Below, piece by piece: positions 37,172 through 62,484 of a stretch of DNA of 64,000 nucleotides (within the stretch, counting starts at the first letter, position 1; each line of letters opens with the position of its first letter). The stretch lies in IMG/VR virus record IMGVR_UViG_3300042922_001018. One strand, given 5' to 3'. Source of the stretch: a virus. Lineage: Duplodnaviria > Heunggongvirae > Uroviricota > Caudoviricetes. Under the pieces are notes generated by a model that saw only the letters and a program-made list of their open reading frames with translations, did no database searches and had not been told where the DNA came from. A program made the position numbers and the translations under genes.

Positions 37172-37347
37172 GCGAATCTCCTTGGTTGGTGACCTGGGTA
37201 GGTCGTTCGTGTTCACTCTAGCACACGCACCCGAAGATGTGTGAACTATGTCGTGCGTACTTCGTGTAGGCGGCGGATGTAGACCCGTGATTCCGTCCAA
37301 CAACAAGCAGCCTATCACACGTTCCGAAGAACGCGCAACCCCTAGTT

Positions 37348-37902
37348 TCAGGGAAGGTCGTCAGCGGGAGAGAAGAACTCCGGAGACGTGCGCGCCCGCT
37401 CATGCGCAGCGCGAACCTCGGGGTCAGCGAGAGCCAGCTCTTCCAGCGGCATCGCCACGCGCGGCTGAGAGGCCAGGCTGCTCGTGCGCATGAGATTCAG
37501 CCGCTCCCCGGAAGACTGAATCATCCGGCGCATGGCGTCCGAGAACTCTGGCGAGATGGAGTGGTAATGCCCCAGCATCGAGGTCAGCGCCGCACGCGAC
37601 TCGGGAGACATGTCCTCGTTCTCGGCTGCCTTCGCCTTCAACTCCTCGATAGTCAGCGGCTCTTCCGCGGGCAGCAGCGCCCGCAGCGTGTCAACGTCGA
37701 TAGAAACTTCACGGGTCTCGAACCCCTGTCCATCGTCGTACACCTCTTCTCGGAGGATACGACGCGCTTCCTCAACGGCGTCATCATGCGCTGACGATGA
37801 TGCGTCCAGAACGACTTCCGGAGACGACCCCGACTTCTCAGCGAACTTGCCGTCAGATGAACGCGGCGTCTCGAACGGGTCGAAGTAGCGAGGCCCAGGC
37901 AT
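37348..37902 (-). CDS. PR..DG.F..PE-tagged protein 1
   Basis: N-term ETPRSSDGKFAEKSGSSPEVVL. Confidence 0.8.
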   Translation of the reverse strand: MPGPRYFDPFETPRSSDGKFAEKSGSSPEVVLDASSSAHDDAVEEARRILREEVYDDGQGFETREVSIDVDTLRALLPAEEPLTIEELKAKAAENEDMSPESRAALTSMLGHYHSISPEFSDAMRRMIQSSGERLNLMRTSSLASQPRVAMPLEELALADPEVRAAHERARTSPEFFSPADDLP

Positions 37903-38180
37903 CAGTCGTCCCAGCGGTCATCGAAGCCGTGGGCGTCCGTTGTCCGCAGAGCGTCCGGGTCGGCATTCCCCACGATACCAGCGTAGTACGCGGCTTCGGC
38001 TTCAGTGTCATGGTTCGAGCAGTGGTAGTCCACGTCGCACTCGCACTCGCGGCCGGGAAGGAGAAAGCCGTTCTGCGGACCGGGAATGTCGGCGTCCAGT
38101 GCAACCTCGGGCGACGCGCCGGTCTTCTCGGCGAACTTGCCATCGGTTGCTCGCACGACTTCGTTTTCGTTGAAGCTCAT
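37902..38180 (-). CDS. PR..DG.F..PE-tagged protein 2 (Cys/His-rich body)
   Basis: MSFNENEVVRATDGKFAEKTGASPEVAL; GCCTACA-N7-ATG. Confidence 0.8.
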   Translation of the reverse strand: MSFNENEVVRATDGKFAEKTGASPEVALDADIPGPQNGFLLPGRECECDVDYHCSNHDTEAEAAYYAGIVGNADPDALRTTDAHGFDDRWDD

Positions 38181-38196
38181 GAACGGATGTAGGCGG

Positions 38197-39270
38197 TCAA
38201 GCGACCGCGCCATTCCATACGCGCTGGGCGAAAGCCATCTCGTCCCCGTCGCAGTCAGCCTGGTACGGGCCGCGCCACGTAGGGACGATGACCTTCGCCA
38301 TGCAGTCGGCCAGCAGTTCCAGCCCGGCATTCCCCGTGGTGAACAGCGCAGCCAGCGTTGGGGAGTCGATGAGCGCCCAGTAGTTCTTGAACTGAATCTG
38401 ATGAGCGTACTCGTGAGCCATCGGCCCCATCCAGTAGCCCTTCGAGTTGCCTGCGACACGATTCGCTACGATGACGCGACCATCCGGGTGAGCACACGCG
38501 ATAGCCGCTGCCATCTCACATACGATGTCCGCCCGCTCTAGATGCACCCATCCGCCGCCCACTGCGTCTAACGCAGAACGAGCGCCTGCCAGAACGGGGT
38601 CTGTGGCAGGCGCTGCGTTTGTATTCGCGGAAGGGTCAGGTGTCGGTGGAGGCTCCTCGTTCGGGTCTAGGCCTTCACGCTGCTCCCGTTCCAGCTCTTG
38701 CTGTTCTTGTTCAGCGCGAAGACGTTCCTGCTCCGCGTCGTATTCCTGGACTTCGGTCCGCAGAACGTTCATCGCGTCTCGTACTGTAGCCGTGGAGTTC
38801 GCCACGACGGCTGGATTCTCGCGTTCAGCCGCTACCCGGTCCTGCTCAGCAGAGACCGTTCGCTCGAACCCGGAGACATCCACCTTCGGCCGAGCCTCAT
38901 CGAGGAGAGCTGCGGCTTCGCCCAACGTGGTGAGGAAGCCTTCCCGGCTAGCGAGAAGCTCCTCCTGCGTCGCGATAGTCGCGTCTTTCTCCGCCACCGC
39001 CGACTCTAGCTCAGCGATACGCGCCTCAGCGTCCCCCGTCTGTTGACGGGCTTCCGCCGAAGTCGATTCCAGCTCAGCCACGCGCGCACTCGCCGAAGCG
39101 TACTGCGCGCCGAAGAAGATTGCAGCGATGATTGCGATGACTGCCACAGCGAGCATGGCAGCGAACATTGTCACCTTGACCCGAGAGAGTCGCTTCTCCT
39201 GGCGACGACGCTTCGCCCCGTCATGGTTGACGAGGATTTGCGCCGAGCTGTCGTCGAATAGTTCGCTCAT
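38197..39270 (-). CDS. TM + coiled-coil + HExxH metallopeptidase-like protein
   Basis: MAHEYAHQIQ...ELLADC; paralog of 12570..13148. Confidence 0.78.
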   Translation of the reverse strand: MSELFDDSSAQILVNHDGAKRRRQEKRLSRVKVTMFAAMLAVAVIAIIAAIFFGAQYASASARVAELESTSAEARQQTGDAEARIAELESAVAEKDATIATQEELLASREGFLTTLGEAAALLDEARPKVDVSGFERTVSAEQDRVAAERENPAVVANSTATVRDAMNVLRTEVQEYDAEQERLRAEQEQQELEREQREGLDPNEEPPPTPDPSANTNAAPATDPVLAGARSALDAVGGGWVHLERADIVCEMAAAIACAHPDGRVIVANRVAGNSKGYWMGPMAHEYAHQIQFKNYWALIDSPTLAALFTTGNAGLELLADCMAKVIVPTWRGPYQADCDGDEMAFAQRVWNGAVA

Positions 39271-39698
39271 ACTCCAGCCAGGCCGTCATCTCGGTCGTCG
39301 GAGCCGGGGCGGCGAGGCTTCAGTAGCCCCTTCTGGTGAGACTTCTCAGCCTCAGCGTCAGCGAGGCGACGCTCGTCGTCCACCGGCTGTGGGGTGCCGA
39401 ACCCGGTGATGAGCGCCTCATCCTTCGAGCCGAAGGGAAGCGCCTTGAAGCGGAACCGTTCGAACTCGTTGAGGACGCGCGAGACATCCTGCGCGGAGCC
39501 GTGAACCTCGATGATGGCGATGCGCGTCTGACTGTCCTTCCAGCCGTACGCGCCATGCGCCGAGTAGTTCACAGACGACCCGTCGAGAACGCTCCAGACG
39601 CGCCACAGGCGACGAAGGTTCGCGGCAACCCGAATGAACCTGGGGGTGGACAGACTCGTGTCTGCCTCGGGGCGCTCCAGAACAGCAGCCTCAGACAT
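39267..39698 (-). CDS. hypothetical protein
   Basis: MSEAAVLERPE...; GAGG RBS. Confidence 0.65.
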   Translation of the reverse strand: MSEAAVLERPEADTSLSTPRFIRVAANLRRLWRVWSVLDGSSVNYSAHGAYGWKDSQTRIAIIEVHGSAQDVSRVLNEFERFRFKALPFGSKDEALITGFGTPQPVDDERRLADAEAEKSHQKGLLKPRRPGSDDRDDGLAGV

Positions 39699-40305
39699 AA
39701 GCGATTCCTCTCGCGCTGGGGGTAAGAAGCTCGGGGATAACCGTCGCCCACTCACTCCAATGATACATCCTACGACCCGGCGTTGCGACGTTGTAGGGGT
39801 GGTCGAAAACGACGTGCTCCCAGAAGGGCGCGATGGCGCCCGTGATGACCGGCTTGTCATCGAGCAGCACGTCACCGAACTCGGTGGTCTTGTCCCACTT
39901 CAGCACGGCGCTATGCGCCAGTTCCGGGGAGAAGTCACGGCCGAGCGCGAGAATCTTGTCGCTCGCGCACGTCGGGTTCGAGGCCGTCGGCGCAGAGCAG
40001 ACCTTCGTCAGGACGCCCTGCATCGCCGAGATTTCAGCCATGGCCTCCTGCGCGCCTTCCATGACCGGAATGCGCTTGTAGAAGTGCGGCAGGTCGAAGA
40101 CGAGCTGCTTCTGCTCCTGGGTCAGAAGCGGAGCGTTGACCATGGGGTTGTAGTCCAGACGCGCCAGGCGGTCCGGCACCGGTACATGCGGGAACCGCTG
40201 TCCTACTTCCTCCCAGAACAGAGCGTCCCAGTCGTAGAGGACATTGTCCATGTCCACCAGGAAGATGAACGGCCGGTCGCTGAACGGCCTAATGATGTCG
40301 TTCAC
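39691..40305 (-). CDS. 5'(3')-deoxyribonucleotidase (HAD, NT5C-like)
   Basis: VDMDNVL, DKT..GDVLLDDKP, FDHPYN. Confidence 0.9.
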   Translation of the reverse strand: MNDIIRPFSDRPFIFLVDMDNVLYDWDALFWEEVGQRFPHVPVPDRLARLDYNPMVNAPLLTQEQKQLVFDLPHFYKRIPVMEGAQEAMAEISAMQGVLTKVCSAPTASNPTCASDKILALGRDFSPELAHSAVLKWDKTTEFGDVLLDDKPVITGAIAPFWEHVVFDHPYNVATPGRRMYHWSEWATVIPELLTPSARGIAYV

Positions 40306-40562
40306 TGCATCCCACTTTCGTCAGTCGTGCTGTTCATCGTACCACTGGTCTCAGAGGACGAGTCGAATCGCTCAGACGCGAAGTCTCCGTTGTGTCGCAA
40401 CGCCTCGGCTTCCAGGAACTCCAGGTTCTCGGGAGAGTCCTTCATAAAGCCCCAACGCAGCGGATTTTGAGGGCACTCGAAGCACTCAACCATCAAGGTC
40501 AGGTGCGTGTCCTCGGGACTCAAAGAGACCGGGACGACCGTAGCACGATGCTCATTCGGCAT
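40302..40562 (-). CDS. small CxxC...H protein
   Basis: ECFECP...HN; coupled. Confidence 0.6.
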   Translation of the reverse strand: MPNEHRATVVPVSLSPEDTHLTLMVECFECPQNPLRWGFMKDSPENLEFLEAEALRHNGDFASERFDSSSETSGTMNSTTDESGMQ

Positions 40563-41235
40563 CCGAAGCCTCCAGCTCCGTTCCTTCGGCGTTCATGTCG
40601 CCGAAGTTTGCCACCGTGAAAGGACCGGCATGAGTCCATGCGAAGACGAAGTTCGAGCCGTCACCTTCAAGGTCACCGAAGGACACCACCCAGGAAGTCT
40701 CGCTTCCCAGAAGCTCATTGAACCGCTCATCGTCCTTGTAAGACAGCACGCAAGGAAGTTCATCCAGGCCGAGGTGACACTGCGCGGAACCATCCGAGAA
40801 CAGCGTAGCCTGGACCGTGCCGTACTCGAACTGGACCGTTGCACCTTCGACGCGCTCGCGACCCTGCTCGAAGAACCATCCAGCGGAGAGAAGGATGAGC
40901 GCCCCGAGAAGGGAAGCAGCGACGAGCGGGAAGAGAGCATTAGCGAGAGTGCGCCAGAACGTCGGGCGGAGGGGAGAGTCAGCAATCTCCGGGTCGTCGG
41001 CCGCAATCGTCTGAGCCGCGCCATACTCGCGGAAACGCCTGGCCGCATGAGAGCTGATGAACCACGCTACGACGCCGACGATGAGGAAACCTGCGGCAGC
41101 CCACGGGATTGTGTCCGGGTTCGCCGCGAACAGCAGTTCCGCTCGACGGTCTACCGCACCGACAGCCTTGAAGCCGAACAACGCGGTGAACACGACGAGG
41201 GCGAAGGCCACAACGGGCCACAGAACGAAACGCAT
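40552..41235 (-). CDS. membrane protein (3 TM)
   Basis: Hydrophobic segments. Confidence 0.72.
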   Translation of the reverse strand: MRFVLWPVVAFALVVFTALFGFKAVGAVDRRAELLFAANPDTIPWAAAGFLIVGVVAWFISSHAARRFREYGAAQTIAADDPEIADSPLRPTFWRTLANALFPLVAASLLGALILLSAGWFFEQGRERVEGATVQFEYGTVQATLFSDGSAQCHLGLDELPCVLSYKDDERFNELLGSETSWVVSFGDLEGDGSNFVFAWTHAGPFTVANFGDMNAEGTELEASDAE

Positions 41236-42056
41236 CAGACTCCTACCAGGCCCATTCTCTTGGGCTGTACCATAGTGTACACGTATTCGTCGGGTACGTT
41301 ATCGGCGACGATGCGCGCGGCGACACGAGGGTCGGTGACGCCGATGCCACGAAGGCGTGTCGCCTCGGCCGGGGAGCATCCTGCGGCGACCAGGAACGGA
41401 AGTGCCTCGATGAGGTCGTCACGCTCGAACCCGTGCGGACCGGTCTCGCAGAGAGACGCCCACGCAAGGGAGTCCCGGCGAGGACCGCGCACCATACCGA
41501 GCTGTGCCAGAATCTTGCGCATCGTGTCCGTGGACAGGCGGCTGAGGAAGGCCTGAGCGTTGTACCCCGACTTAGCCTCCTCGTGGACTTCGTAGAGGCG
41601 CTCGAAGTAGTCGTACGGGATGTTGAACTCAGCGACCGTCTGCACGAACGCTTCGCCGAGAACGTGGGAACCATTCATCACGCGGCTGAGGGTGGCTTCG
41701 AACCATGTCTTCGCTGCCTTCTCGTCCATGCCGAAGCACAGAACCAGAGGGTGAACATCCGGGTTCGCCGCGAGAAGCCGCTCGGTGAAGCCGACGAGAC
41801 CGTCAGCGGCGGCAGCGTTGAACGCGGCTTCATTCTTCAGATAGCCCCGCGCCCATGCTCGGGCCGGGCGAACGCTGGTATGCCGACGATTGCGAAGAGC
41901 GACGCGAAGCCCGGTGTAGAAGTTCGACTTGATGAACCGACGCTCGGCGTAGAAGGCATCTTCCGTCTTGTCCGGACGCATGCCGACGATGACCTGCTTC
42001 ATCAGGTCCAGCGGCGCCAGGGGAATCGAAAGCACCATCTTCGTCATGAGGTTCAT
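41235..42056 (-). CDS. hypothetical protein, GVP.EY-repeat family
   Basis: C-terminal DNVPDEY; start estimated. Confidence 0.65.
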   Translation of the reverse strand: MNLMTKMVLSIPLAPLDLMKQVIVGMRPDKTEDAFYAERRFIKSNFYTGLRVALRNRRHTSVRPARAWARGYLKNEAAFNAAAADGLVGFTERLLAANPDVHPLVLCFGMDEKAAKTWFEATLSRVMNGSHVLGEAFVQTVAEFNIPYDYFERLYEVHEEAKSGYNAQAFLSRLSTDTMRKILAQLGMVRGPRRDSLAWASLCETGPHGFERDDLIEALPFLVAAGCSPAEATRLRGIGVTDPRVAARIVADNVPDEYVYTMVQPKRMGLVGV

Positions 42057-42156
42057 ACCCACGAGAATAACACGAGCGCTGTCCTCCTGCAAGTCGAGGC
42101 GTGGATTGACACCCCGCGAGCTGGCATGATACGCTCGCGGGGACGAAAGGAATCGA

Positions 42157-42660: not shown

Positions 42661-42662
42661 AG

Positions 42663-43406
42663 TCAGCGGCGACGGCCGTGCGACTCGGAGTCGCGCTGGG
42701 CAATACGCGCGTCCCGCTCAGCCATGAAGCTGTCGAACTCGTCAGTCTGACGGAAGTCGCGCAGGTCTTCACGGAGCTGCTCCAGCTCGGCCAGGATACG
42801 GCTGTCGTACGGCTCGAAGCCTGACTGGTCGAAGCCTGCATCCGTGCAGAACGCGTATCGTGCGCGTACTGTTTCTACGGTGCCCTGGGCACCACCGATT
42901 GTGACGGGCGACTGACGAACCTTCGCCGCCTCGATGTCGCTTCCCGTGAGGTCAGCGTAGTACCACATCTGGAGCGCGCGAGCAACCTCGCGCGCCTCAT
43001 GACGGGGGATTTCCGGCTCGTAGGAAGCCGCCCACTGCTGTTCGGCACTCTGAGCGCCACTGGCGCGGGCGCTATCGACCTTGGTAATCCAGGCAGCAGG
43101 GTTCGCCTCCTGCTGGACCTCCCAGTCCGGGTTCATGTCGTAGAGCGCCTGTCCTGCCGCGTCCGCGCCGCTTTCGATGTAGCGGGTGCGTGCGATGGCG
43201 TAGGAGACCCGCATGGCGTCCAGCGCCGACGAGGGAACCGGGACACTCTTCCAGAACCGGATGACCTGCTCCGCGTTGGTGTAGCTGGCAGGCGGGTACT
43301 CGAAGCTTGCGTCGCCGAACTCGTTCAAGCCGATTTCTGGAGCAGAGCCTTCCTTCTCCGAGAACTGGCCGGTGGCGGTACGGGGTTGCATGTCACTCAT
43401 GGTCAT
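42663..43406 (-). CDS. PR..DG.F..PE-tagged protein 3
   Basis: QPRTATGQFSEKEGSAPEIGL; GCCTACA-N7-ATG. Confidence 0.8.
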   Translation of the reverse strand: MTMSDMQPRTATGQFSEKEGSAPEIGLNEFGDASFEYPPASYTNAEQVIRFWKSVPVPSSALDAMRVSYAIARTRYIESGADAAGQALYDMNPDWEVQQEANPAAWITKVDSARASGAQSAEQQWAASYEPEIPRHEAREVARALQMWYYADLTGSDIEAAKVRQSPVTIGGAQGTVETVRARYAFCTDAGFDQSGFEPYDSRILAELEQLREDLRDFRQTDEFDSFMAERDARIAQRDSESHGRRR

Positions 43407-43428
43407 AGTTCAGTGTAGGCAGGAGCGC

Positions 43429-46400
43429 TCAACGGAAGCGAGGCGGCGTCGAAGCGCTCGAACCCGGCTGCGGCGCCACGGACGGTGCCGCAGCCTTACC
43501 GTCCAGGATGAGCCGTCGTGTCGGTCCTGCGGTCGGCGTGGCCGGTCCTGCGTTGCCTCCAGGAATGACGCGACGCGTCTGCGGCGTGCCAACGCCACTC
43601 AGCTTCGTGTTCGGGTCAAAGAGAATCTGACGCGGTGCGACCTTCGCGAACGGAGTCGCCGAGTTCGCGGGGGCCGCAGGAAGCGGCGGGACCGGACGGC
43701 CAGCGACCGGAGCACCCGTTACCGGGGTACGGGGCTTCGGAGGACGCGAGGACGGCGCTGGGGCCGAACCGCCGCCACCGTCGCGACGGTCGCGACGCGT
43801 CTGGTTGTTCGCCTTCTGCTGCTCCGCAGCCTGCACAGCCTGCTCCGCCTGGTAGTTGCGGTATGCCGCCATACGGTCACGTCCCGTGACGTTCGACGCT
43901 GCGCGCTTCGTAACGCCCCACGCCGCGCCAGAGGCCTTCGCCGTGGCGTAGGTTGCTCCGACTGCGGTCGCACCGATGACCCACGAGGAGCCTGCGGTCA
44001 TGACGCCGCCACCGACGACAGCCGCGCCGACGGCCACCTTCTTGGCGTCCGACTTCAGACGGTCCTGACGCGCGATGCGGAAGCCGACCTCGTCGAACGT
44101 ACCGTTCTCGTCGGTGTACTGCGCCCGCAGGTCGTCGCCACGGATGTGCTGAATCGGGTGCGCCATCGTGTTCGCGGTCGCCTTGACACCGTTCCACAGC
44201 TCGGAGCGACGCTCGGCCACGTTCTGCTTCGTGCTGAGCCATGCGTTGCGCATACCGTCCGCGCCCGCGGCACGCAGGTTGCGAGGGCCGTTGGCGGTGC
44301 CACCAGCCGCGAGGCCACCGGCCACCCGAGCTTCGGACTTCTGCTGAGAGGCGTACACGCGAGCAGCCATGCGCTCCTGACGCGCTGCGGCGTGTGCCTG
44401 CTGGCGCTGGTCGCGACGAGCAGAACCGAGGAACCCGCCAGCCGCAGCGCCACCGGCAGCCGCAGCGGCCGTACCCAGACCCTTGCCTGCACCAGCGGCA
44501 CTCGCTGCACCAGCCGCAGCCGTACCAACGCCACCAGCGGCAGCGCCCGCGGCACCGAGACCACGTCCAGCCGCACCCTTGCCTCCGGTAGCCGGAGCGA
44601 GCATGCCGCGGCCCATCGAAGCGCGGCGCTCGGCCATCGTCGTGCCGAAGCGACCACCCGAGACCTTGCTGAGGGCGGAAGAGCCAGCGCCCTGGATAGC
44701 CTGACGGCCCGAACGTTCGATAGCGCTCCGAGCCATACGGCCACCGATGAAGCCGCCGACAGCGCCACCCGCCGCTCCAGAGGCGAGACCGTAAGCGATG
44801 CCGCCCTTCATGGACATCGGCGAAGGCATCTTCAGCACCTTCTTGAAAATCATGTTCAGCGAGATGACCGCTAGCACAGGAGCCGCAGCCGCCCATCCCA
44901 GGGCCATGACGGTACCAGCGCCGAAGGAGCCGTTACCGAACTGCACCAGGATGAACGTGGTGAGAACCACCACGGAAAGCAGGACAAGCGACAGCGCTGC
45001 GAACAGCATCGACCCGATGAACTGCTTAGCCGCCGCCCCGAGCTGCTCCAGACCGTTCGCACGGAAGAGCGCCAGAATCATGATGGGCAGGATGGTAATG
45101 GTGCCGAGGACCACGAAGAGCTTCGCGATGACAACGGCAAGCGCCATGCCGAAGAAAATGCACATCATGATGAACGCGCTTACTGCGTAAATCAGCAGCG
45201 GGAACATGTTGCCAGCCGCGTTAGCGCCGTTCAGCGATGCGAGGTAATCCTGGATGTTCGCCTGCGTCGAAGCGTTCGAGATGTTCTCGGTCTTCTTCTC
45301 GATGTCGCTCATGGTGTAGCCGACCGAGAGACCACCCTCGAACTCGTTGTCCGTAGGCTTCTTGTTCCACCACTTCTGGCACTCGTCGGCAGCAACCCCC
45401 GAGAGCTGGTCCCAGCCCGTACGCCACTGCCACGTGCCAGCGCCACGGTTCGACGGCTCACAACCGGCCCAGCCGACCATCGCGCGCTGAATCTGCTCAG
45501 CCGAGGAGGCGGTCCAGACGAGCTGTCCCGTGTCACGAGCGCTCGCCGGGATGCCCGACGCGGCCGTGAAGTCGGCAGCGTTACGGGCGGGAGTCTGAGT
45601 CCAGCCATCCAGGAGACGGCAGTAGGAGTATTCAGCGTACTGGCTGGTTCCGAGCTGAGCGCTCTTCCAGACGGGCAGACCCGTCGTACGCCACATCGAG
45701 TCCATCGTCTGCGTCAGAGCGATACGAGGGGTCGCCAGAGCCGTCGGAGACGCACTCTCGCGGAAGCGCTTGTCGTACAGGTTGACGGACTCCGCGCAGA
45801 GGTTGTTGTTCGCAGTTCCCGGCGCACGGGAGCGGTCCGCGTCAATCTGGCCGCTGGTCTGAGTCTGAACGGTAGCGAGAACTGCACCGACAGGGACGCT
45901 TGCGGCGGTCGAGAGGGAGTCGTTCGCGATGGTGACAATCCAGCCCGGCGAACCGACGCCAGGCTTGTACTGACCGCCCGCAGTGGTCGTGGAGTTCTGC
46001 GCTCCGACCACCATAACGACGAACACGGCCATCGTCGCGACCAGCCCGGCGATACGCCGGAAGAGCATAGCGCTGGCGCCTGGCCCGGCCTTACGCCAGG
46101 ATGCGAACATCCAGATGCCCACCACCACAATCAAGATGAGAGGGATGAGAGCTACGCCGGAAGATGGATTCAGCATCGACTGGCCGAGGGTGGCGCCGAT
46201 TTGGTCCATCTGTGCACCCAGCATGTTGATGGGTTCGAAGTTGATAGCGAGGTCAGCGACCCACTGCGAGACGGTCCAGAAGCCGTTGCCGACGGCCATG
46301 ATGTTGCCCTGGAGCATCGTGCGCGAAGCGGCGTTCATCAGGTCGCCGATGGCCCACATGTCGTACTTGTTCTGGAAGCTCGCCGTAGCGTCACGCCAGC

Positions 46401-46869
46401 GATTCAGCAGAAGGTTCTGCGAGATAGCCGCACGCTCTGCCTGGGCCTCAGGGGACATGTACGGGCCACACGAGCCATCACAGGCTCCGATGGGCGCCCG
46501 GCTGCCATCCGCTGAAGTGATACCGCTGGGCAGGGCGGTAGACGATGCCTGTTGCTGCGTCGGCGCTCCATCGACGAAAGCAACAGCACCCTGCCCAGCG
46601 GATTCCGGGGTCGCGCCGATGACGGCAGGCGCGACAGAGTTGGCGATGGAGTCAGAAGGCTCCACGGATGCGACAGCCACACCGGTAACGGCGACCGTCG
46701 CGAGCATCAGACCAGCGAGAGCTGCGATGCCGGTCTTTGCGAAGCGTCCACGCCACGTTGCGCGCTTCGATGAATCTTTGGCCTTGCGGGGCGTGCCCGT
46801 CAGGCGTGCGCGGGAAGCCTCAGCAGCCTCATGCATCGGAAGGAAGATGCCACCAGTCACTTTAGCCAT
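43429..46869 (-). CDS. large polytopic membrane protein, VirB6/TrbL/TcpH-like architecture
   Basis: Multiple TM blocks, Cys-containing extracellular domain, long Ala/Gly-rich and Pro-rich tail; family is inference. Confidence 0.55.
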   Translation of the reverse strand: MAKVTGGIFLPMHEAAEASRARLTGTPRKAKDSSKRATWRGRFAKTGIAALAGLMLATVAVTGVAVASVEPSDSIANSVAPAVIGATPESAGQGAVAFVDGAPTQQQASSTALPSGITSADGSRAPIGACDGSCGPYMSPEAQAERAAISQNLLLNRWRDATASFQNKYDMWAIGDLMNAASRTMLQGNIMAVGNGFWTVSQWVADLAINFEPINMLGAQMDQIGATLGQSMLNPSSGVALIPLILIVVVGIWMFASWRKAGPGASAMLFRRIAGLVATMAVFVVMVVGAQNSTTTAGGQYKPGVGSPGWIVTIANDSLSTAASVPVGAVLATVQTQTSGQIDADRSRAPGTANNNLCAESVNLYDKRFRESASPTALATPRIALTQTMDSMWRTTGLPVWKSAQLGTSQYAEYSYCRLLDGWTQTPARNAADFTAASGIPASARDTGQLVWTASSAEQIQRAMVGWAGCEPSNRGAGTWQWRTGWDQLSGVAADECQKWWNKKPTDNEFEGGLSVGYTMSDIEKKTENISNASTQANIQDYLASLNGANAAGNMFPLLIYAVSAFIMMCIFFGMALAVVIAKLFVVLGTITILPIMILALFRANGLEQLGAAAKQFIGSMLFAALSLVLLSVVVLTTFILVQFGNGSFGAGTVMALGWAAAAPVLAVISLNMIFKKVLKMPSPMSMKGGIAYGLASGAAGGAVGGFIGGRMARSAIERSGRQAIQGAGSSALSKVSGGRFGTTMAERRASMGRGMLAPATGGKGAAGRGLGAAGAAAGGVGTAAAGAASAAGAGKGLGTAAAAAGGAAAGGFLGSARRDQRQQAHAAARQERMAARVYASQQKSEARVAGGLAAGGTANGPRNLRAAGADGMRNAWLSTKQNVAERRSELWNGVKATANTMAHPIQHIRGDDLRAQYTDENGTFDEVGFRIARQDRLKSDAKKVAVGAAVVGGGVMTAGSSWVIGATAVGATYATAKASGAAWGVTKRAASNVTGRDRMAAYRNYQAEQAVQAAEQQKANNQTRRDRRDGGGGSAPAPSSRPPKPRTPVTGAPVAGRPVPPLPAAPANSATPFAKVAPRQILFDPNTKLSGVGTPQTRRVIPGGNAGPATPTAGPTRRLILDGKAAAPSVAPQPGSSASTPPRFR

Positions 46870-47342
46870 CCTTCGGTATCAATCTGCTGCTTGCGACGCC
46901 GTGGCGTCGGGGTGGTCAGGACCGCGGTAGGTGCGACCTGTTCGTATTCGGGACGAAGCTCGATGTCCAGCGGACCGACCATAGCCAGATACGAAGGAGA
47001 GATGGTTTCGTTACATACGAATACTACACCATTCTGCGCCTTACGCTTGTCCCACATGGCCTCGTAACGACGAAGGCCGAGACCGTCGCGCGTACGACCC
47101 TCCACGAAGAAGAAGGTCAGGGCCACGACAATGAGGGGGATGGTCAGAAGAACTACTACGCCCGGCATCATGCCGAACGAGAAGGCGACCGGAGCAATAA
47201 GGCCCACAGGGATAAGAGAAGCCAGGAGAGCCATCACGGTCACGATGAACGACCGACGCGAGATTTCGAACGTCGCCAGGACCATTGTCCGGCCGGTGTT
47301 CTTCTTCGCGCCAGTCAGGCTGGTCATCGAGAACATGTACAT
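46857..47342 (-). CDS. two-TM protein, PrgI/TcpE (VirB3)-like architecture
   Basis: TM hairpin then RTRDGL basic region; family is inference. Confidence 0.5.
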   Translation of the reverse strand: MYMFSMTSLTGAKKNTGRTMVLATFEISRRSFIVTVMALLASLIPVGLIAPVAFSFGMMPGVVVLLTIPLIVVALTFFFVEGRTRDGLGLRRYEAMWDKRKAQNGVVFVCNETISPSYLAMVGPLDIELRPEYEQVAPTAVLTTPTPRRRKQQIDTEGWLK

Positions 47343-47434
47343 GGTTGTTACCTATTATCCCATCTGGGCGAACGAGAAGTGGCCGAGCACCCGAAGGTGA
47401 CGGCCACTTCCCTGCCGTTGGAAGGCCGTCGGGG

Positions 47435-47728
47435 TTACCGTACGACCGAGTTGACGATGGTGATGAGGAAGCCGACGATGAACTGAAGAACACCGATGAT
47501 GGCCGGAATGACGAGCTGTGGACCAGCCAGTGCGCCCGCGAGGACGACGGCAATCCACGGGAAGCCCTGCATGCCAGCCCCGCCACCCTTGCGTCGCTGC
47601 CACAGCCATACGACCACGGAGATGACGAGGATGACCACACCCAGCACCGTCATGAACGTCAGAACGTTCGACGGTACGACTGCGATGAGACGGTTCCAGC
47701 CGTCCACCCAGTTGAGGCCACTACCCAT
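47435..47728 (-). CDS. small two-TM protein, TcpD/VirB2-like architecture
   Basis: 97 aa, two hydrophobic helices, basic Gly loop; GAAAGG RBS. Confidence 0.5.
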   Translation of the reverse strand: MGSGLNWVDGWNRLIAVVPSNVLTFMTVLGVVILVISVVVWLWQRRKGGGAGMQGFPWIAVVLAGALAGPQLVIPAIIGVLQFIVGFLITIVNSVVR

Positions 47729-47866
47729 TGTTGTCTACCTTTCGCTAAGAACCGCTTGATGCGGGCATAGGGGTTGTAGGCGGCGAACGGGTCGCGGGTG
47801 TCACTGTAAGAGACTTGGAGCGCCTCCTATGCACCCATCAGAATAGCAAGTCCACGCATCAAGAGT

Positions 47867-47919
47867 GAACGCGGTGCCAACCCCGAGATAGCTGTCATCT
47901 CAGGGTTGGCACCGCGTTC
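47867..47919. terminator. long inverted repeat, probable terminator
   Basis: GAACGCGGTGCCAACCC / GGGTTGGCACCGCGTTC after stop of 47931 gene. Confidence 0.7.
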
Positions 47920-47930
47920 GGTAGAAGGAG

Positions 47931-48713: not shown

Positions 48714-48858
48714 GTGTATCAGTGTACAGACGAACCACTGTCAACGCAAATTGGATTCCAGAAACGTCAAAGCTGCCGTTGCCGCCCAGGTTCCTCCGAC
48801 AAGGAAGACAATCCCAACGGCACTCAGCAGAATGTTCTGAGTACGGCTCAGCTCCGTA

Positions 48859-49317: not shown

Positions 49318-49354
49318 GGAAGCAGTCTAGCATGACCTCGCCCACATCGCCAAG

Positions 49355-53958: not shown

Positions 53959-53992
53959 TGGGCTATCCTAGCACAAGGCTCGCAGGTAGAGC

Positions 53993-54466: not shown

Positions 54467-54493
54467 TATCCCTCTCGTGCACCTGACTTATAG

Positions 54494-55431: not shown

Positions 55432-55440
55432 TCCTGAAGT

Positions 55441-56184: not shown

Positions 56185-56186
56185 GC

Positions 56187-57410: not shown

Positions 57411-57434
57411 GATAGCACAAAATCGTGGCGCTCG

Positions 57435-58208: not shown

Positions 58209-58230
58209 ACCTTCAGTCTACCGCAGAAGT

Positions 58231-58461
58231 TCAGGACGAGTAGCCGGAGAACATGTCCGATTCGTAGTAGTGGTCCTGGGAGCGCGAATAGTCCCGCTCT
58301 TCCCAGTCACGCTCCTGGGAGCGCCACTCCTGGCCCTGGCGTTCCTGCTCGATGAGGAGGTCTTCTTCGACCTGAGCCGGGTCTAGGATGAAGACTTCCG
58401 GAGCCGAACCCGTCTGCGCGGTGAACCGCCCGAGGTCGTCACGGTTCGCCTCGTTGCTCAT
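58231..58461 (-). CDS. PR..DG.F..PE-tagged protein 4 (divergent tag)
   Basis: NRDDLGRFTAQTGSAPEVFIL. Confidence 0.72.
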   Translation of the reverse strand: MSNEANRDDLGRFTAQTGSAPEVFILDPAQVEEDLLIEQERQGQEWRSQERDWEERDYSRSQDHYYESDMFSGYSS

Positions 58462-58769
58462 GCCGCGAACAGCTCGAACTCTTCGAACTCGACTGCGCCG
58501 CCACGGACATCGAACTCCACAATCTTCCTGGGGAGGACGACACGGAGCGGGGCGTTCGGAAGCGGCGGGCCGTGGACAATGAGCTTCTCACCCTCATCCA
58601 CCCAGTCAGGGATGCGGACGACTCGGCTGCCGTAGCTTGTCTTGCGTCCGAGCGGGTCCAGCAGCGCGATTACCAGCTCGTCGCGCGTTTCAGGGGTAAC
58701 GATTGTCATGTTCACAGTGTACCTTTCGCCAGCAACTCTGCTGGTCACTTGTCCTTCGAATCGAGCCAA
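58458..58769 (-). CDS. small hypothetical protein (true start probably downstream of 58769)
   Basis: Fills gap between tagged genes; ATGA coupling. Confidence 0.55.
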   Translation of the reverse strand: MARFEGQVTSRVAGERYTVNMTIVTPETRDELVIALLDPLGRKTSYGSRVVRIPDWVDEGEKLIVHGPPLPNAPLRVVLPRKIVEFDVRGGAVEFEEFELFAA

Positions 58770-59764
58770 GACAGGAGAGCCTCGGCCTTTCGCTGCTTCT
58801 GCGTGAAGACAGTTGCCGCACGGGTCGCTTCGAGTCCATCACGCAACGCACTCGAACGGGTCGCGTATCCATTCTTCGCGAGGGACTCGATTTCCTCCTG
58901 GTACGGTCCGCTCCACTCGTCGCCCGAGAGGGAGCGGGCTACGGCGATGGCCTCTGCGTCCGTTGGCGCTACCGTCGTACGCTTCGGTGAGTCGGCGATT
59001 GCACCTGCGTCCAGCCCTTCAGCGTCCTTCAGGGCGGTCCAGCGGTCGCTTGCAACAACGGCCTCATCGAGCTGTTCGCGAAGGTCCGCGTATGCGTAAG
59101 GGCTGCCGTACGTTCCGGGGTCGTGCTCGTTGACGAACTTGATGAACTGCATACGGTCTTCTGACGTGTTCGCGACCAGGGAAGGGGAGAACTCTTCCGG
59201 CTTGTACGTCGTCGAGAACTCCAGCATGACGCTGTTCCAGCTCTCCCCGTTGTCGATAATCTCGGCACCGAACCGGTCCCGGAAGAACTTCTCGACGATG
59301 GGGTAGGCGTCATCGAGTTCGTCGGGCGTGAAGTCATCAGCCCAGAGCATGTCCTCGTAGTAGTTTCCGGTGAGGAGGATGTCACCGTCGTCTGTGAGAC
59401 GCGCATACGGGTTGGTCATCTCGCCACCGGAAGGCTCCCACTCGACATCGCTCAGGTCCATGTCGTAGCCGTCTTCGCTGGGAAGGTCGAAACGCTTCTC
59501 CTTGAACTGTGTCGGTAGGCCCCAATCGCGCTCCCCACCCTCGCGCATGTTCTCGATGACTTCGTCCAGAGTCTCGCGCGGTTCGGTGGCCGGGATACCG
59601 AGTTGGGCGCGAATGCCTTCCTCAGTGAAGGTGTCCCCCTGGTAACGGTACAGCGTGTTCTCGTTCGTCGGAGGGGAAGTCAGCTCGAACTCGGGAGCGG
59701 CGCCAAGCTTCTCAGCGAAGGTTCCGTCAGTCGCGCGCGGGTGGTCGGTCTCAGAGAAAGTCAT
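58745..59764 (-). CDS. PR..DG.F..PE-tagged protein 5 (acidic)
   Basis: DHPRATDGTFAEKLGAAPEFEL; GCCTACA-N7-ATG. Confidence 0.82.
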   Translation of the reverse strand: MTFSETDHPRATDGTFAEKLGAAPEFELTSPPTNENTLYRYQGDTFTEEGIRAQLGIPATEPRETLDEVIENMREGGERDWGLPTQFKEKRFDLPSEDGYDMDLSDVEWEPSGGEMTNPYARLTDDGDILLTGNYYEDMLWADDFTPDELDDAYPIVEKFFRDRFGAEIIDNGESWNSVMLEFSTTYKPEEFSPSLVANTSEDRMQFIKFVNEHDPGTYGSPYAYADLREQLDEAVVASDRWTALKDAEGLDAGAIADSPKRTTVAPTDAEAIAVARSLSGDEWSGPYQEEIESLAKNGYATRSSALRDGLEATRAATVFTQKQRKAEALLSWLDSKDK

Positions 59765-59927
59765 GCCTGGATGTAGGCGGTGCCGCGAACTTCTAGAAGC
59801 GACAGATGCCCAGCGCGCGACTCAGTGACACAGAGTCCACAGCCGCCCATCTGTCAGGCAAGTCCACACTACGCACACTGCTCATAGGCTCGATGTAGAG
59901 CGTTGTGTCCTGCGCCCAGCCCGCCGG

Positions 59928-60482
59928 TCAGTTGAGTCGGTAGAGGTAGAACGTCTCATCGTCCGTCTCGATTTCAGTCTCTTCACCATCGTACTGCGCG
60001 AGGTACGGGCCACGGCCGTCTTCCTCGATGGCCCGTTCGACGAAACCTTCCGAGCCGCCATCGGCAAGACCATCGACCATCCGCTTGATGTTCTCCTGGT
60101 GCTTCTCGCCGCCGCCCGAGTCGTTCGCGAGCGCCAAGAACACGCTTACGTCGAGACCCGTCTCCTTAGCGAGAAATCCGCTACCCATGCTCCACATGTT
60201 CTCGTCGATGTAGAGCTTCGCGGCGTCCTGCGCCTGCTCTTCCGTACCGACCCCGTACTCAACTTCACGGCCGTCCGCGTCGATGGCTGTGAACGTGGGG
60301 AGGTGTTCGTAGTGCGTGTCGCCAGTCGAAGTGACGCCGCTGGCGTCGATACCCAGGTGTTCTGCCAATGCGACGCGAGCCTCAGAGGTCTCATCGTCCA
60401 GTTCCAGCTCGGGCGCAGCGCCCAGCTTCTCGGCGAACTTACCGTCAGTGGAACGTGGGTGCTCGGTCTCAGAGAAAGTCAT
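59928..60482 (-). CDS. PR..DG.F..PE-tagged protein 6 (acidic)
   Basis: EHPRSTDGKFAEKLGAAPELEL; paralog of next gene. Confidence 0.82.
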   Translation of the reverse strand: MTFSETEHPRSTDGKFAEKLGAAPELELDDETSEARVALAEHLGIDASGVTSTGDTHYEHLPTFTAIDADGREVEYGVGTEEQAQDAAKLYIDENMWSMGSGFLAKETGLDVSVFLALANDSGGGEKHQENIKRMVDGLADGGSEGFVERAIEEDGRGPYLAQYDGEETEIETDDETFYLYRLN

Positions 60483-60504
60483 GCCCGGATGTAGGCGGTC
60501 GCGG

Positions 60505-61044
60505 TCAGTTCAGCCGGTAGAGATAAAGAGTCTGGCCGTCTGCTGCCGCGATTTCGTTCTCCTCGAAATCGTATCCGGCGAGAAGCTGACCGCGACCGTT
60601 CTCCGCGATGAATCGCTTCCCCGCTCCCACTGAGCCACCATCAGCGTGCTCATCGAGCAGACGCGTGAGTTCCTCCAGGTTTTCAGTCCCCTCATCCGCC
60701 GTCTCGTCCAGCTCGGCGAACACCGCCTCGTCCAGACCTGTCTCTTTGGCGAGGTGGGAGTTGGTGAGCGCCCAGATGTTCTTCTGGAACGATTCTTCGG
60801 CCGCAGTCGTGGCCTGTCCATCCGTACCGATAGCGTATTCCTCCTCACCGACCCGGAACGTCGGAAGGTTGTCGTAGTGGACGTAGTCGTCTCCTACCAC
60901 ATCCGCTACGTCCACTTCGAGATGGTCGGCAAGCACAGAGCGGATAGCTTCAGTGTCGGCGATGCTTACCTCCGGTGCTGCGCCGAGCTTCTCAGCGAAC
61001 TTGCCATCGGATGCTCGCGGGTGCTCAGTATTGTCGAAGGTCAT
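60505..61044 (-). CDS. PR..DG.F..PE-tagged protein 7 (acidic)
   Basis: EHPRASDGKFAEKLGAAPEVSI; both paralogs end YLYRLN. Confidence 0.82.
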   Translation of the reverse strand: MTFDNTEHPRASDGKFAEKLGAAPEVSIADTEAIRSVLADHLEVDVADVVGDDYVHYDNLPTFRVGEEEYAIGTDGQATTAAEESFQKNIWALTNSHLAKETGLDEAVFAELDETADEGTENLEELTRLLDEHADGGSVGAGKRFIAENGRGQLLAGYDFEENEIAAADGQTLYLYRLN

Positions 61045-61107
61045 GAACCGCTGTAGGCGGTTGTAGGAACCCTACAACAGAAACCGGCCATCCTTGTACA
61101 CGTCAAA

Positions 61108-61157
61108 CAAGCCCGTGCAGAATAGTGCCAGCAGCGGCACTATTCTGCACGGGCTTG
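61108..61157. terminator. 22-bp perfect inverted repeat
   Basis: CAAGCCCGTGCAGAATAGTGCC / GGCACTATTCTGCACGGGCTTG. Confidence 0.72.
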
Positions 61158-61177
61158 TAGGAACCCTACAAGGAATC

Positions 61178-61687
61178 TCAGATGAGCTTGTCGGGAACGT
61201 ACAGGAAGACGGGGTCGCTCTCGAAAACGTCAGACGCGTGGAACCCGCCGTACGAGTTCGTGAACATGCAGTCGCCGAACTCTTCAGAGTCCAGGTTCAC
61301 GAAGCCGGGAGCGAACGTGAACGTGGACTCCGGCTCGGACTCGTGCTCGCGGATGTGGACGACCAGACCGATGGTCTGAGGGCCGGACTCGTTGACCATA
61401 GCGACAAGGTCGGGACGCTCAGAGGCCGGGAAGGTCTCGACGACCAGCTCCGGGTTGCGAGCGAGGATGAACTCCTCCGAGAAGACGTTGCCCTTGTCCT
61501 CGGGGTCGTCCACGTAGGCGGACGCCCAGACGGCCGAGTGAATCTCACCGTCGGTGTCGATGTGTCCGGGGATGAGAGTCGCGACGTGCATCATCGGCTC
61601 GTCATACGACTGCGGGTCCGTCAGGTAATCCTCGGGCTGCACGATGAACTTGACGACGGAGCCAGGGTTCGTGGGGAGCTTGTCCAT
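61178..61687 (-). CDS. acidic hypothetical protein
   Basis: 169 aa; leaderless promoter. Confidence 0.7.
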   Translation of the reverse strand: MDKLPTNPGSVVKFIVQPEDYLTDPQSYDEPMMHVATLIPGHIDTDGEIHSAVWASAYVDDPEDKGNVFSEEFILARNPELVVETFPASERPDLVAMVNESGPQTIGLVVHIREHESEPESTFTFAPGFVNLDSEEFGDCMFTNSYGGFHASDVFESDPVFLYVPDKLI

Positions 61688-61733
61688 ACCTCTACGGTAG
61701 CACCCCGGCTCCGTCGTGTCAAGCGCGTGGTAT

Positions 61734-62465
61734 TCAGCCGAACAGTTGCTCGTCCGTGGTGTAAAGGCGTACGTTGGTCGTGTATGTGCGCTCAGGCGGC
61801 GCCCATCCGCCTTCCGTCTTTCGGTTCCAGGCTTCAGCGATGTTCAGAGCGCCGTGGTAGGCAAGCGAAGCATCGCGTGTCCACTGGCCGTCTGGTGTGT
61901 GCAGAGCACCGTTAGGCGCTTCGATGAACACCTCGACACTCTGTTGTGGAGTTCCTACATTCGCTGTACGCACAGAGTATTCGAAAGGAGGCATCTCGCC
62001 ATTCGATACGGCTTCCTTCACCCGGTTCGTCACGCGCTGTCCCACAACATCAGCTCGCTCCCAGCCGTCGTACAAGGCTCCTACCTGAGTTACGCGGCCG
62101 TCCGCGCGGTCAAGTCGAACGGGCGGCGGCGGAACCGGACGGTCGTTCGAGAACCGGCCCAGAGCGATGCACACGGCCTGATGCATTGGGTCGTTCGGGG
62201 AAAGCTGGGAGCCTTCCTCGTCCACGACGTAAACGGCTTCCGGGGCCGCGCGCACCGCGTATGCCCGGTCGTCGAAAGTGCCGACGAACGAGCCATCACT
62301 ACGCCACATCACCCGGCCGAACAGCTCGTCGATAGTGTCCTCAGGGGCGACGTTGGCCGCAGAAGGCGCGGGCGGGAGAAGCGAAATCTCCGGAGTGGAG
62401 CCATGCTTCTCGGCGAACCGTCCGTCAGTTGCGCGGGGCTGGTTGAAGGAATCCCAGGTACTCAT
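61734..62465 (-). CDS. PR..DG.F..PE-tagged protein 8
   Basis: MSTWDSFNQPRATDGRFAEKHGSTPEISL; GCCTACA-N7-ATG. Confidence 0.82.
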   Translation of the reverse strand: MSTWDSFNQPRATDGRFAEKHGSTPEISLLPPAPSAANVAPEDTIDELFGRVMWRSDGSFVGTFDDRAYAVRAAPEAVYVVDEEGSQLSPNDPMHQAVCIALGRFSNDRPVPPPPVRLDRADGRVTQVGALYDGWERADVVGQRVTNRVKEAVSNGEMPPFEYSVRTANVGTPQQSVEVFIEAPNGALHTPDGQWTRDASLAYHGALNIAEAWNRKTEGGWAPPERTYTTNVRLYTTDEQLFG

Positions 62466-62484
62466 GTCTTCGTGTAGGCAGCGG

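What the first reader, a model, noticed from the sequence alone, without database searches (positions are those of the whole stretch)
37265..62479. Dedicated GCCTACA-N7-ATG promoter motif marks the tagged genes
Seen on minus strand: GCCTACA lies exactly 7 nt before the ATG of six tagged genes (motifs at 38188, 43414, 59772, 60490, 61052, 62473); the other two tagged genes are downstream members of those units. The same heptamer occurs at 47775 ahead of the membrane operon and at 37265 ahead of the RNA island. It differs from the TGnTAnnnT elements used by most other genes here. Inference: a leaderless promoter class read by an element-encoded sigma factor or activator (e.g. late regulon), co-regulating cargo proteins, the membrane module and perhaps the tRNA array.
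Basis: partly seen in the sequence, partly recalled or inferred. Interest (0 to 1): 0.8.

Follow-up and report, generated by a model that had tools for sequence, protein, structure and literature searches.

The report
Private leaderless promoter for tagged genes
A nine-base box placed exactly seven bases before the start codon of this giant soil plasmid-like element's "address-tagged" genes is very probably the core of an element-specific promoter that makes messages with no leader, and cultured Arthrobacter-type megaplasmids carry a two-base variant of it about 170 times, so it can now be tested at the bench.

Summary
GCCTACA-N7-ATG occurs six times, all on the minus strand, against 0.05 expected.

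The best reading is the -10-region core of a promoter that has no -35 element and starts transcription at the A of the ATG.
- It occupies the position that TGnTANNNT holds in 26 ordinary leaderless promoters of this window, but it is not TANNNT.
- Among 102 tagged genes here and in related soil contigs, 54 have the box at N7 or N8, and 52 of those lack a Shine-Dalgarno sequence. Where the box lies 19-39 nt upstream, a Shine-Dalgarno sequence is usually present.
- Position -1 is always a pyrimidine.
- Strong terminator hairpins sit just upstream of two boxes.

New here: two cultured megaplasmids, pACHL01 of Pseudarthrobacter chlorophenolicus A6 and CP099467, carry the variant CCGCACACA 166 and 178 times. 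pACHL02, in the same host as pACHL01, has none. Untagged genes there add a -35-like CGGKGA. Tagged genes use a form without a -35, as in this element. pACHL01 encodes a helicase-sigma fusion behind its own box.

Who reads the box in this element is inferred, not shown. The link to the tRNA array is not supported.

The scan had already noted this box in other windows of the same genome. Interest 0.65; a new variant of a known kind.

The parts
62473..62481 (-). Box CTGCCTACA, 7 nt before the ATG at 62465 of tagged gene 61734-62465
   Evidence: Orthologues in L060 and L071 keep the weaker variant CTGCCTACT at N7.
61052..61060 (-). Box CCGCCTACA, 7 nt before the ATG at 61044 of tagged gene 60505-61044
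   Evidence: The box is conserved in orthologous loci L046 and L039, where the flanks have diverged.
61111..61154 (-). Intrinsic terminator (20-bp stem followed by TTGTTT) ending about 50 nt upstream of box 61052
60490..60498 (-). Box CCGCCTACA, 7 nt before the ATG at 60482 of tagged gene 59928-60482. It lies in a 22-nt gap after the stop codon of the preceding gene.
59772..59780 (-). Box CCGCCTACA, 7 nt before the ATG at 59764 of tagged gene 58745-59764
58231..58461 (-). Weakly tagged gene, coupled by an ATGA overlap to untagged gene 58459-58709. That gene has its own TACACT-N6-ATG sigma-A-type leaderless promoter.
47775..47783 (-). Box CCGCCTACA. It is followed at N6 by a 7-codon mini-ORF (47768-47745), then by a Shine-Dalgarno sequence (GAAAGG) and gene 47435-47728.
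47867..47919 (-). Perfect 24-bp hairpin (terminator-like) between the GmrSD_C-like gene and box 47775
   Evidence: region z = -7.6.
43429..47728 (-). Membrane operon behind box 47775: a 97-aa protein (3 hydrophobic segments), a 161-aa protein (2 segments) and a 1146-aa protein (7 segments). The 1146-aa protein is 27-30% identical to proteins of Arthrobacter-type megaplasmids.
43414..43422 (-). Box CTGCCTACA, 7 nt before the ATG at 43406 of tagged gene 42663-43406. It lies in a 22-nt gap after the 1146-aa gene.
38188..38196 (-). Box CCGCCTACA, 7 nt before the ATG at 38180 of tagged gene 37902-38180. Tagged gene 37348-37902 follows with a TGATG overlap.
   Evidence: The orthologous arrangement is present in L078.
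37265..37273 (-). Box CCGCCTACA heading an 85-nt leader. The leader contains a sigma-A-like TGcTAGAGT at 37223-37215.
   Evidence: The box and leader are conserved in L078.
37019..37171 (-). Conserved 50-aa ORF with a Shine-Dalgarno sequence (AAGGAG) behind box 37265. The orthologue in L078 differs by an in-frame 3-nt indel.
36926..36952 (-). GC-rich 11-bp hairpin (terminator-like) between the small ORF and tRNA-Trp (36824-36897)
   Evidence: region z = -5.3.

Best explanation
C(C/T)GCCTACA is the -10-region core (positions -16 to -8) of an element-specific promoter class that has no -35 element.

Proposed mechanism:
- RNA polymerase starts at the A of the ATG, 8 nt after the last base of the box. 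The mRNA therefore has no leader and no Shine-Dalgarno sequence, and ribosomes load directly on the 5' AUG, as is common in Actinobacteria.
- Genes downstream in a unit are translated by stop/start overlap.
- The box is not the housekeeping TANNNT. It therefore needs a specificity factor other than sigma-A, most likely a sigma-70-family protein encoded by the element.

The box is this lineage's version of a promoter family that Arthrobacter-type megaplasmids write as CCGCACACA. In those plasmids the tagged genes likewise use a form without a -35 element.

What rests on sequence evidence: geometry, enrichment, conservation, the either/or relation with Shine-Dalgarno sequences, and privacy to the megaplasmid.
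For: 1. Enrichment and strand. There are 6 N7-ATG sites against 0.05 expected. In 253 kb (the window plus 28 related soil contigs found by a tag-only DNA pattern) there are 73 box-like sites. Of these, 53 stand at N7 and 3 at N8 before an ORF of at least 80 aa.

2. Same geometry as proven-type promoters next door. Twenty-six genes in the window have (TGn)TANNNT 6-7 nt before ATG or GTG. The box sits in that slot. The position equivalent to the final T of TANNNT is T in only 5 of 52 boxes.

3. An unbiased census of 102 tagged genes:
- 54 have a box (at most 1 mismatch) at N7 or N8, and 52 of them have no Shine-Dalgarno sequence.
- 8 have the box 19-39 nt upstream, and 6 of them have a Shine-Dalgarno sequence.
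- 40 have no box, and 22 of them have a Shine-Dalgarno sequence. Others have TAGAAT or TAGGAT at N6-7.
- Fisher test, p = 4e-10.
The box therefore tracks a transcript start, not the start codon.

4. Position -1 is C in 42 and T in 10 of 52 boxes, and +1 is A. This is the usual initiation dinucleotide.

5. No upstream element. Information content is below 0.2 bit from -61 to -17. In L050 two tagged genes diverge from a 39-bp gap made of two back-to-back boxes.

6. Strong terminator hairpins lie directly upstream of boxes 61052 and 47775.

7. The box is invariant while the flanks and spacers of orthologues differ.

8. Cultured relatives:
- CCGCACACA occurs 166 times on pACHL01 (reversed control: 1) and 178 times on CP099467. 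It occurs 0 times on pACHL02 of the same host.
- Untagged genes add a -35-like CGGKGA at fixed spacing. The 20 and 22 tagged genes lack it.
- 17 of 18 ATGs predicted from boxes equal RefSeq CDS starts.
- pACHL01 encodes a 990-aa helicase plus sigma-70 (regions 2, 3, 4) fusion whose ATG lies 9 nt after a box.

9. CCGCCTACA-N7-ATG is not enriched in the 401 genomes drawn from the phylum of G001. There were 31 hits in all and at most 2 per genome, with scattered hits to the reversed control as well.
Against: - There is no transcript evidence of any kind. No RNA run holds this DNA, so no start site is mapped.
- A GC-rich -10 region and spacer (typically TCCGGGC) with no -35 element is a hard promoter to melt, and none has been characterised.
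- No sigma or other candidate reader lies in this window (50 proteins scanned) or in the 189 kb of related contigs held. The sigma-like genes that other readers noted elsewhere in the element could not be examined here.
- The host is unknown, so a host alternative sigma is not excluded. The 401-genome test required an ATG at N7 and may not include the host.
- The relatives used for inference share only 27-30% identity in one membrane protein, plus variant forms of both tag and box.
Confidence: 0.72

Rival explanations
1. It is a promoter for leaderless mRNAs, but a host alternative sigma factor reads it. On this view the element plugs its tagged genes into a host stress or developmental regulon.
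For: No reader was found in the window or in the related contigs. The host is unknown. Actinobacteria carry many alternative sigma factors (general knowledge).
Against: pACHL02, which shares a cell with pACHL01, has 0 copies of the variant box against 166 on pACHL01. The box sequence changes with the plasmid lineage, together with the tag. pACHL01 carries its own sigma-70-family gene behind a box. The 401 genomes searched show only background counts.
Confidence: 0.14
2. It is an operator for a repressor or other regulator, like the stoperators of Cluster A mycobacteriophages, and the true promoter lies elsewhere.
For: It is a short asymmetric site repeated in one orientation in short intergenic gaps, like stoperators (general knowledge; mentioned in PMC3203893).
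Against: The distance to the ATG is fixed (51 at N7 and 3 at N8 of 54). No TANNNT is available to serve these ATGs. Terminators lie just upstream. Two divergent tagged genes are separated only by two boxes. In relatives the box pairs with a -35-like element at fixed spacing.
Confidence: 0.05
3. It is an RNA signal: an endonuclease cuts 7 nt downstream of the box in long transcripts and so creates leaderless mRNAs.
For: Four boxes lie in 16-22-nt gaps after an upstream gene on the same strand. The element invests heavily in RNA functions: 54 tRNAs, a tmRNA and RtcB.
Against: Strong terminators directly upstream of two boxes would starve such processing of substrate. The back-to-back divergent boxes in L050 leave no room for precursor promoters. 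The geometry equals that of the -10 hexamers of neighbouring promoters. Relatives have a -35 partner.
Confidence: 0.04
4. It is a translation-start signal in the mRNA, like the start-associated sequences of Cluster K mycobacteriophages. Alternatively, it is merely a flank that was copied along with the tag-coding module.
For: It lies next to start codons of genes that share a 5' coding module. Start-associated sequences lie 3-7 bp before start codons (PMC3203893).
Against: The box has no Shine-Dalgarno core. It also occurs 19-85 nt upstream of genes that have their own Shine-Dalgarno sequence, including untagged genes. The box is invariant while the 7-nt spacer and the tag codons vary. Mismatch counts are largely bimodal: 51 boxes with none and 3 with one at N7/8, against 3 or more in most unboxed genes, with few decaying intermediates.
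Confidence: 0.04

Closest known systems
[quoted passage not shown]
   Same: The -10-region element sits 7 nt before the start codon. There is no Shine-Dalgarno sequence, and -1 is a pyrimidine with +1 an A. Twenty-six canonical examples lie in this same window.
   Different: The sequence is CCGCCTACA, not (TGn)TANNNT, and the final T of the hexamer is missing. It is used by a defined gene set. The start codon is ATG in every boxed tagged gene seen (the scans looked for ATG first), whereas 10 of 28 canonical promoters use GTG.
CCGCACACA promoters of Arthrobacter-type megaplasmids (pACHL01 NC_011879.1, CP099467), found here. I found no publication on them.
   Same: The box is 7/9 identical and has the same orientation. 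The ATG lies 7-8 nt downstream and GGC often precedes it. The tagged genes use a form without a -35 element. The plasmids share a homologous membrane protein and a related tag.
   Different: In those plasmids the box also drives most untagged units, with an added -35-like CGGKGA and a T after the box. In this element, untagged genes use sigma-A-type promoters instead.
T4 late promoters (TATAAATA at -10, no -35, read by the phage sigma gp55; general knowledge)
   Same: An extended -10 box alone, with no -35 element, defines a class of the element's own genes.
   Different: The sequence is unrelated and GC-rich. No gp55 or gp33 homologues were looked for. T4 late mRNAs have leaders.
hrp box / HrpL regulon of type III effectors
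   Same: A dedicated promoter is coupled to proteins that share an N-terminal address.
   Different: The hrp box is a bipartite ECF-type promoter with leaders. No secretion or transfer of the tagged proteins has been shown here.
Start-associated sequences of Cluster K mycobacteriophages (GGGATAGGAGCCC, 3-7 bp before the start codon; PMC3203893)
   Same: A short asymmetric repeat lies just before the ATG of many genes of a mobile element and is absent from hosts.
   Different: Start-associated sequences contain the AGGAG Shine-Dalgarno core and have variable spacing. The box has no Shine-Dalgarno core and fixed spacing, and it also works at a distance from genes that have their own Shine-Dalgarno sequence.

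Membership tests
Actinobacterial sigma-A leaderless promoter | -10 hexamer TANNNT (A at position 2, T at position 6) | tested here: not met
   With TA of the box as hexamer positions 1-2, position 6 is T in 5 of 52 boxes. In the CCTACA register neither A2 nor T6 is present.
Actinobacterial sigma-A leaderless promoter | -10 element ends 6-7 nt before an A/GTG start, with no Shine-Dalgarno sequence | tested here: met
   N7 in 51 and N8 in 3 of 54 boxed tagged genes; 52 of 54 lack a Shine-Dalgarno sequence.
Actinobacterial sigma-A leaderless promoter | Transcription start site coincides with the first base of the start codon | not testable with these tools
   No RNA run holds this DNA.
Alternative sigma-70-family promoter with its own sigma | Conserved -10-region element distinct from the housekeeping one, over-represented before genes | tested here: met
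Alternative sigma-70-family promoter with its own sigma | -35 element at fixed spacing | tested here: not met
   No information from -61 to -17. Met only by the untagged class in the relatives.
Alternative sigma-70-family promoter with its own sigma | Cognate sigma gene on the element | tested here: inconclusive
   None in this window, and the rest of the 450-kb contig could not be reached. Present on pACHL01 and CP099467.
T4-late-type promoter (-10 only) | Extended -10 box is sufficient, with no -35 element | tested here: met
   The divergent back-to-back boxes in L050 agree.
T4-late-type promoter (-10 only) | TATAAATA consensus and gp55/gp33-type factors | tested here: not met
   The box sequence is unrelated. 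The factors were not searched for.
Start-associated sequence (Cluster K phages) | Contains the Shine-Dalgarno core and lies 3-7 bp from the start codon | tested here: not met
   No AGGAG in the box. Spacing is fixed at 7 nt, and the box also occurs 19-85 nt upstream of genes that have their own Shine-Dalgarno sequence.
Stoperator-like operator | Variable position relative to start codons, with a separate promoter | tested here: not met
   Spacing is fixed and no other -10 element is available.

The most novel reading that the evidence does not exclude
A family of giant actinobacterial plasmid-like elements runs a self-contained expression and addressing system.
- An element-encoded sigma reads a private GC-rich box. 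In cultured relatives this sigma is fused to an XPB-like SF2 helicase.
- A subclass of that box without a -35 element makes leaderless mRNAs specifically for proteins that carry a shared N-terminal address tag.
- In pACHL01 one tagged, boxed gene (ACHL_RS22220) is itself faintly sigma-like.
The tagged set may therefore include factors that travel with the DNA and switch on the element in a new cell.
Probability: 0.3. Interest if true: 0.85.

Novelty: new variant of a known kind. Interest (0 to 1): 0.65.

Why it matters
It would show that a giant mobile element keeps a private transcription signal for one functional class of proteins, those carrying a shared address tag, while it uses host-type promoters for the rest.

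Two cultured, sequenced strains carry a two-base variant of the box. They have about 170 copies per plasmid, a clear split into forms with and without a -35 element, and an unusual helicase-sigma fusion as the candidate reader. The hypothesis can therefore be tested with ordinary start-site mapping, reporter fusions and in vitro transcription in Pseudarthrobacter chlorophenolicus A6.

It also gives annotators a rule for calling leaderless starts and operon heads on these plasmids. It offers orthogonal promoter-sigma pairs for high-GC hosts as well.

Tried and rejected
Searches for relatives:
- Megablast and tblastn against GenBank phages found no close relative.
- Viral contigs, searched by protein and by a box+tag pattern, gave nothing.
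- Genome contigs, searched by tag alignment and by tag DNA pattern, gave only chance matches.
- tblastn of a tagged protein against plasmids gave no match.

Access to the rest of the element:
- Metagenome loci are not searchable as whole records.

Expression:
- The look-up of sequencing runs listed no RNA holder, only three soil DNA runs that may be the source.

- A region-3-like sigma motif regex found nothing in the held DNA.
- tblastn of the pACHL01 sigma fusion and of RS22220 against the window plus related contigs found nothing.

Literature:
- Searches for CCGCCTACA, pACHL01 and helicase-sigma fusions returned nothing relevant.

Ideas considered and rejected:
- An antisense RNA matching the box: the plus-strand copies are coding.
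- Pairing of the box with the 16S 3' end: no complementarity (own knowledge).
- A palindromic operator made with the upstream TTGTAGG: present at only 6 of 54 boxes and not conserved as a palindrome among orthologues.

Full report
**What the window is.** The window has 62% G+C, and nearly all genes lie on the minus strand. It carries 54 tRNA genes and a tmRNA at 17966-36897. It belongs to a 450,372-bp contig present in soil metagenome DNA runs. It has no close relative among GenBank phages or IMG/VR contigs. Its 1146-aa membrane protein is 27-30% identical to proteins of 375-608-kb plasmids of Arthrobacter, Pseudarthrobacter, Paenarthrobacter and Curtobacterium.

GCCTACA occurs 15 times (4.7 expected). 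GCCTACA-N7-ATG occurs 6 times (0.05 expected), all on the minus strand at the stated coordinates. All eight named sites share the longer form C[CT]GCCTACA and are intergenic. The other heptamers lack the prefix and lie in coding sequence or in a tRNA.

A tag profile finds eight tagged genes:
- Six start 7 nt after a box, with no Shine-Dalgarno sequence in between.
- One (37902) overlaps the stop codon of a boxed gene (TGATG).
- One (58461) overlaps by ATGA an untagged gene that has its own TACACT-N6-ATG promoter.

**The box sits in the -10 slot.** Twenty-six other minus-strand genes in this window have (TGn)TANNNT 6-7 nt before an ATG or GTG. [quoted passage not shown] The box occupies the same slot before the tagged genes but is not TANNNT. 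The position equivalent to the final T is T in only 5 of 52 boxes.

**Related contigs give an unbiased test.** A DNA pattern that encodes only the tag core (no box) recovered 28 related soil contigs, 189 kb in all. I took a census of 102 tagged genes there and in the window, found by the tag profile alone:

| Box position | Genes | With a Shine-Dalgarno sequence |
|---|---|---|
| Box (at most 1 mismatch) at N7 or N8 | 54 | 2 |
| Box 19-39 nt upstream | 8 | 6 |
| No box | 40 | 22 |

Among the unboxed genes, others have TAGAAT or TAGGAT at N6-7, or overlap the upstream gene. Box at N7/8 and Shine-Dalgarno sequence are close to mutually exclusive (Fisher p = 4e-10). The box therefore follows the transcript start, not the start codon. 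This argues against a translational signal and against simple hitch-hiking with the tag.

Further points from the same data:
- The box is invariant, while the 7-nt spacer, the tag codons and the upstream flanks of orthologues differ.
- Position -1 is C or T in 52 of 52 boxes and +1 is A.
- No position from -61 to -17 carries information.
- In L050 two tagged genes diverge from a 39-bp gap that consists of two back-to-back boxes and their spacers. No upstream element can therefore be required.

**Independent units.** A terminator with a 20-bp stem ends about 50 nt before box 61052. A perfect 24-bp hairpin lies between the preceding gene and box 47775. Transcription must restart at or near these boxes.

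**The two boxes that do not precede tagged genes.**
- Box 47775 is followed at N6 by a 7-codon mini-ORF. A Shine-Dalgarno sequence and three membrane-protein genes follow (97, 161 and 1146 aa, with 3, 2 and 7 hydrophobic segments).
- Box 37265 is conserved in L078. An 85-nt leader follows it and contains a sigma-A-like TGcTAGAGT. Then come a Shine-Dalgarno sequence and a 50-aa ORF whose orthologue differs by an in-frame indel. A GC-rich hairpin follows, before tRNA-Trp. The proposed link to the tRNA array is therefore not supported.

**Cultured relatives use a variant of the box.** Weak tag matches on pACHL01 of Pseudarthrobacter chlorophenolicus A6 led to a variant tag, M..RQPKGIPxGGQFA...EP...L, preceded by CCGCACACA-N7/8-ATG. 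This box is 7/9 identical to CCGCCTACA.

| Plasmid | Copies of CCGCACACA |
|---|---|
| pACHL01 (427 kb) | 166; reversed control 1; about 5 expected by my composition estimate |
| Arthrobacter caoxuetaonis plasmid CP099467 | 178 |
| pACHL02 (158 kb), same host as pACHL01 | 0 |

 On pACHL01, 86 of the copies have an ATG at N7-9 (77 at N8).

In a 37-kb stretch of pACHL01, 17 of 18 ATGs predicted from boxes equal the RefSeq CDS starts. They head runs of tightly packed genes.

Both plasmids show two subclasses:
- Untagged genes: a -35-like CGGKGA(S) at box positions -21 to -15 (G at position -20 in 65/66 and A at -16 in 61/66 on pACHL01), and a T after the box.
- The 20 and 22 tagged genes: no such element, a G before the box, a purine after it, and GG(C/T) before the ATG.

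The form without a -35 element is what this window's element uses. In the leadered copies on pACHL01, the base at the predicted start is a purine in 69 of 75.

pACHL01 encodes a 990-aa protein annotated as a sigma-70-family factor. By Pfam it is an SF2 helicase (ResIII, Helicase_C) fused to sigma regions 2, 3 and 4 and an HA domain. Its ATG lies 9 nt after a box. I found no publication on any of this.

**Who reads the box here.** This is inferred.
- No sigma lies among the 50 window proteins scanned or in the related contigs.
- Other readers of this scan noted sigma-like genes about 40 kb before the window.
- CCGCCTACA-N7-ATG shows only background counts in the 401 genomes drawn from the phylum of G001: 31 hits in all, at most 2 per genome, with scattered hits to the reversed control as well. 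One of those genomes, G002, is unpublished and contributes a single hit. The conclusion does not rest on it.
- A host alternative sigma remains possible. I put it at about 0.14.

**Verdict.** The promoter reading is well supported by sequence evidence. The private-reader part is supported by analogy with cultured relatives. The tRNA-array part is not supported. The scan had already flagged this box in other windows of the same genome. New here are the unbiased census, the terminator and divergent-box arguments, and the variant box with its two subclasses and helicase-sigma fusion in cultured plasmids.

Noticed in passing
L141:2250-5222 (pACHL01 NC_011879.1 377249-380221): A 990-aa protein fuses an SF2 helicase (ResIII/DEAD, Helicase_C; weak XPB/ERCC3-like match) to sigma-70 regions 2, 3 and 4 and an HA domain. 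Its ATG lies 9 nt after a CCGCACACA box. It is a candidate reader of the plasmid's private promoters. I know of no described helicase-sigma fusion.
   Followed up: partly
pACHL01 (L112-L131, L138, L139) and CP099467 (L143-L161): There are two promoter subclasses around the same CCGCACACA core. One has a -35-like CGGKGA plus a T after the box (untagged genes and leadered units). The other has no -35 element and serves the 20 and 22 tagged genes.
   Followed up: yes
L029:402-1439 (pACHL01 ACHL_RS22220): The first gene of the operon that holds the homologue of the window's 1146-aa membrane protein is both tagged and boxed. It gives a sub-threshold Sigma70_r2 match (E = 0.004). The equivalent gene on CP099467 does too.
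   Followed up: partly
L050, about 8100-8150: Two tagged genes diverge from a 39-bp gap: CAT-N7-TGTAGGCGG-N7-CCGCCTACA-N7-ATG. It is a minimal bidirectional pair of boxes.
   Followed up: yes
window 61061-61085; L046, L039, L050, L060: TTGTAGG, the inverse of the box core, is the only k-mer enriched upstream of boxes (6 of 54; 0.2 expected), at about -35 to -29. In the orthologues of window box 61052 it reads TTGTAGGAT or TTGTAGGGT, which could be a tandem sigma-A-type -10 element.
   Followed up: partly
window 47745-47768; L111 (pACHL01 near 16014); L078 3675 onward: Leadered boxes are often followed at N6-7 by a very short ORF (7, 13 or 15 codons) ahead of the gene that has the Shine-Dalgarno sequence. 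These may be leaderless upstream ORFs or chance.
   Followed up: no
L048 near 188: An intact box and spacer are followed by AGG where paralogues have ATG. The tag-coding sequence continues in frame. This is possibly a start-codon loss.
   Followed up: no
window 17966-36897: An array of 54 tRNA genes plus a tmRNA (tag peptide ANATRNDLALAA), all on the minus strand and interspersed with small ORFs that have sigma-A-type leaderless promoters.
   Followed up: no
window 1-17000 and 39000-64000: The gene content points to nucleic-acid metabolism and anti-defence functions: dATP/dGTP diphosphohydrolase, UvrD-like helicase, C5 methylase, macro domain, histidine phosphatase, NT5C, a GmrSD_C-like nuclease, an SNF2 helicase, RtcB, and the small subunit of ribonucleotide reductase.
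   Followed up: partly
window 37019-37171: A 50-aa ORF is nearly identical at the nucleotide level in L078. It lies behind both a box and a sigma-A-like -10 element. Its function is unknown.
   Followed up: partly
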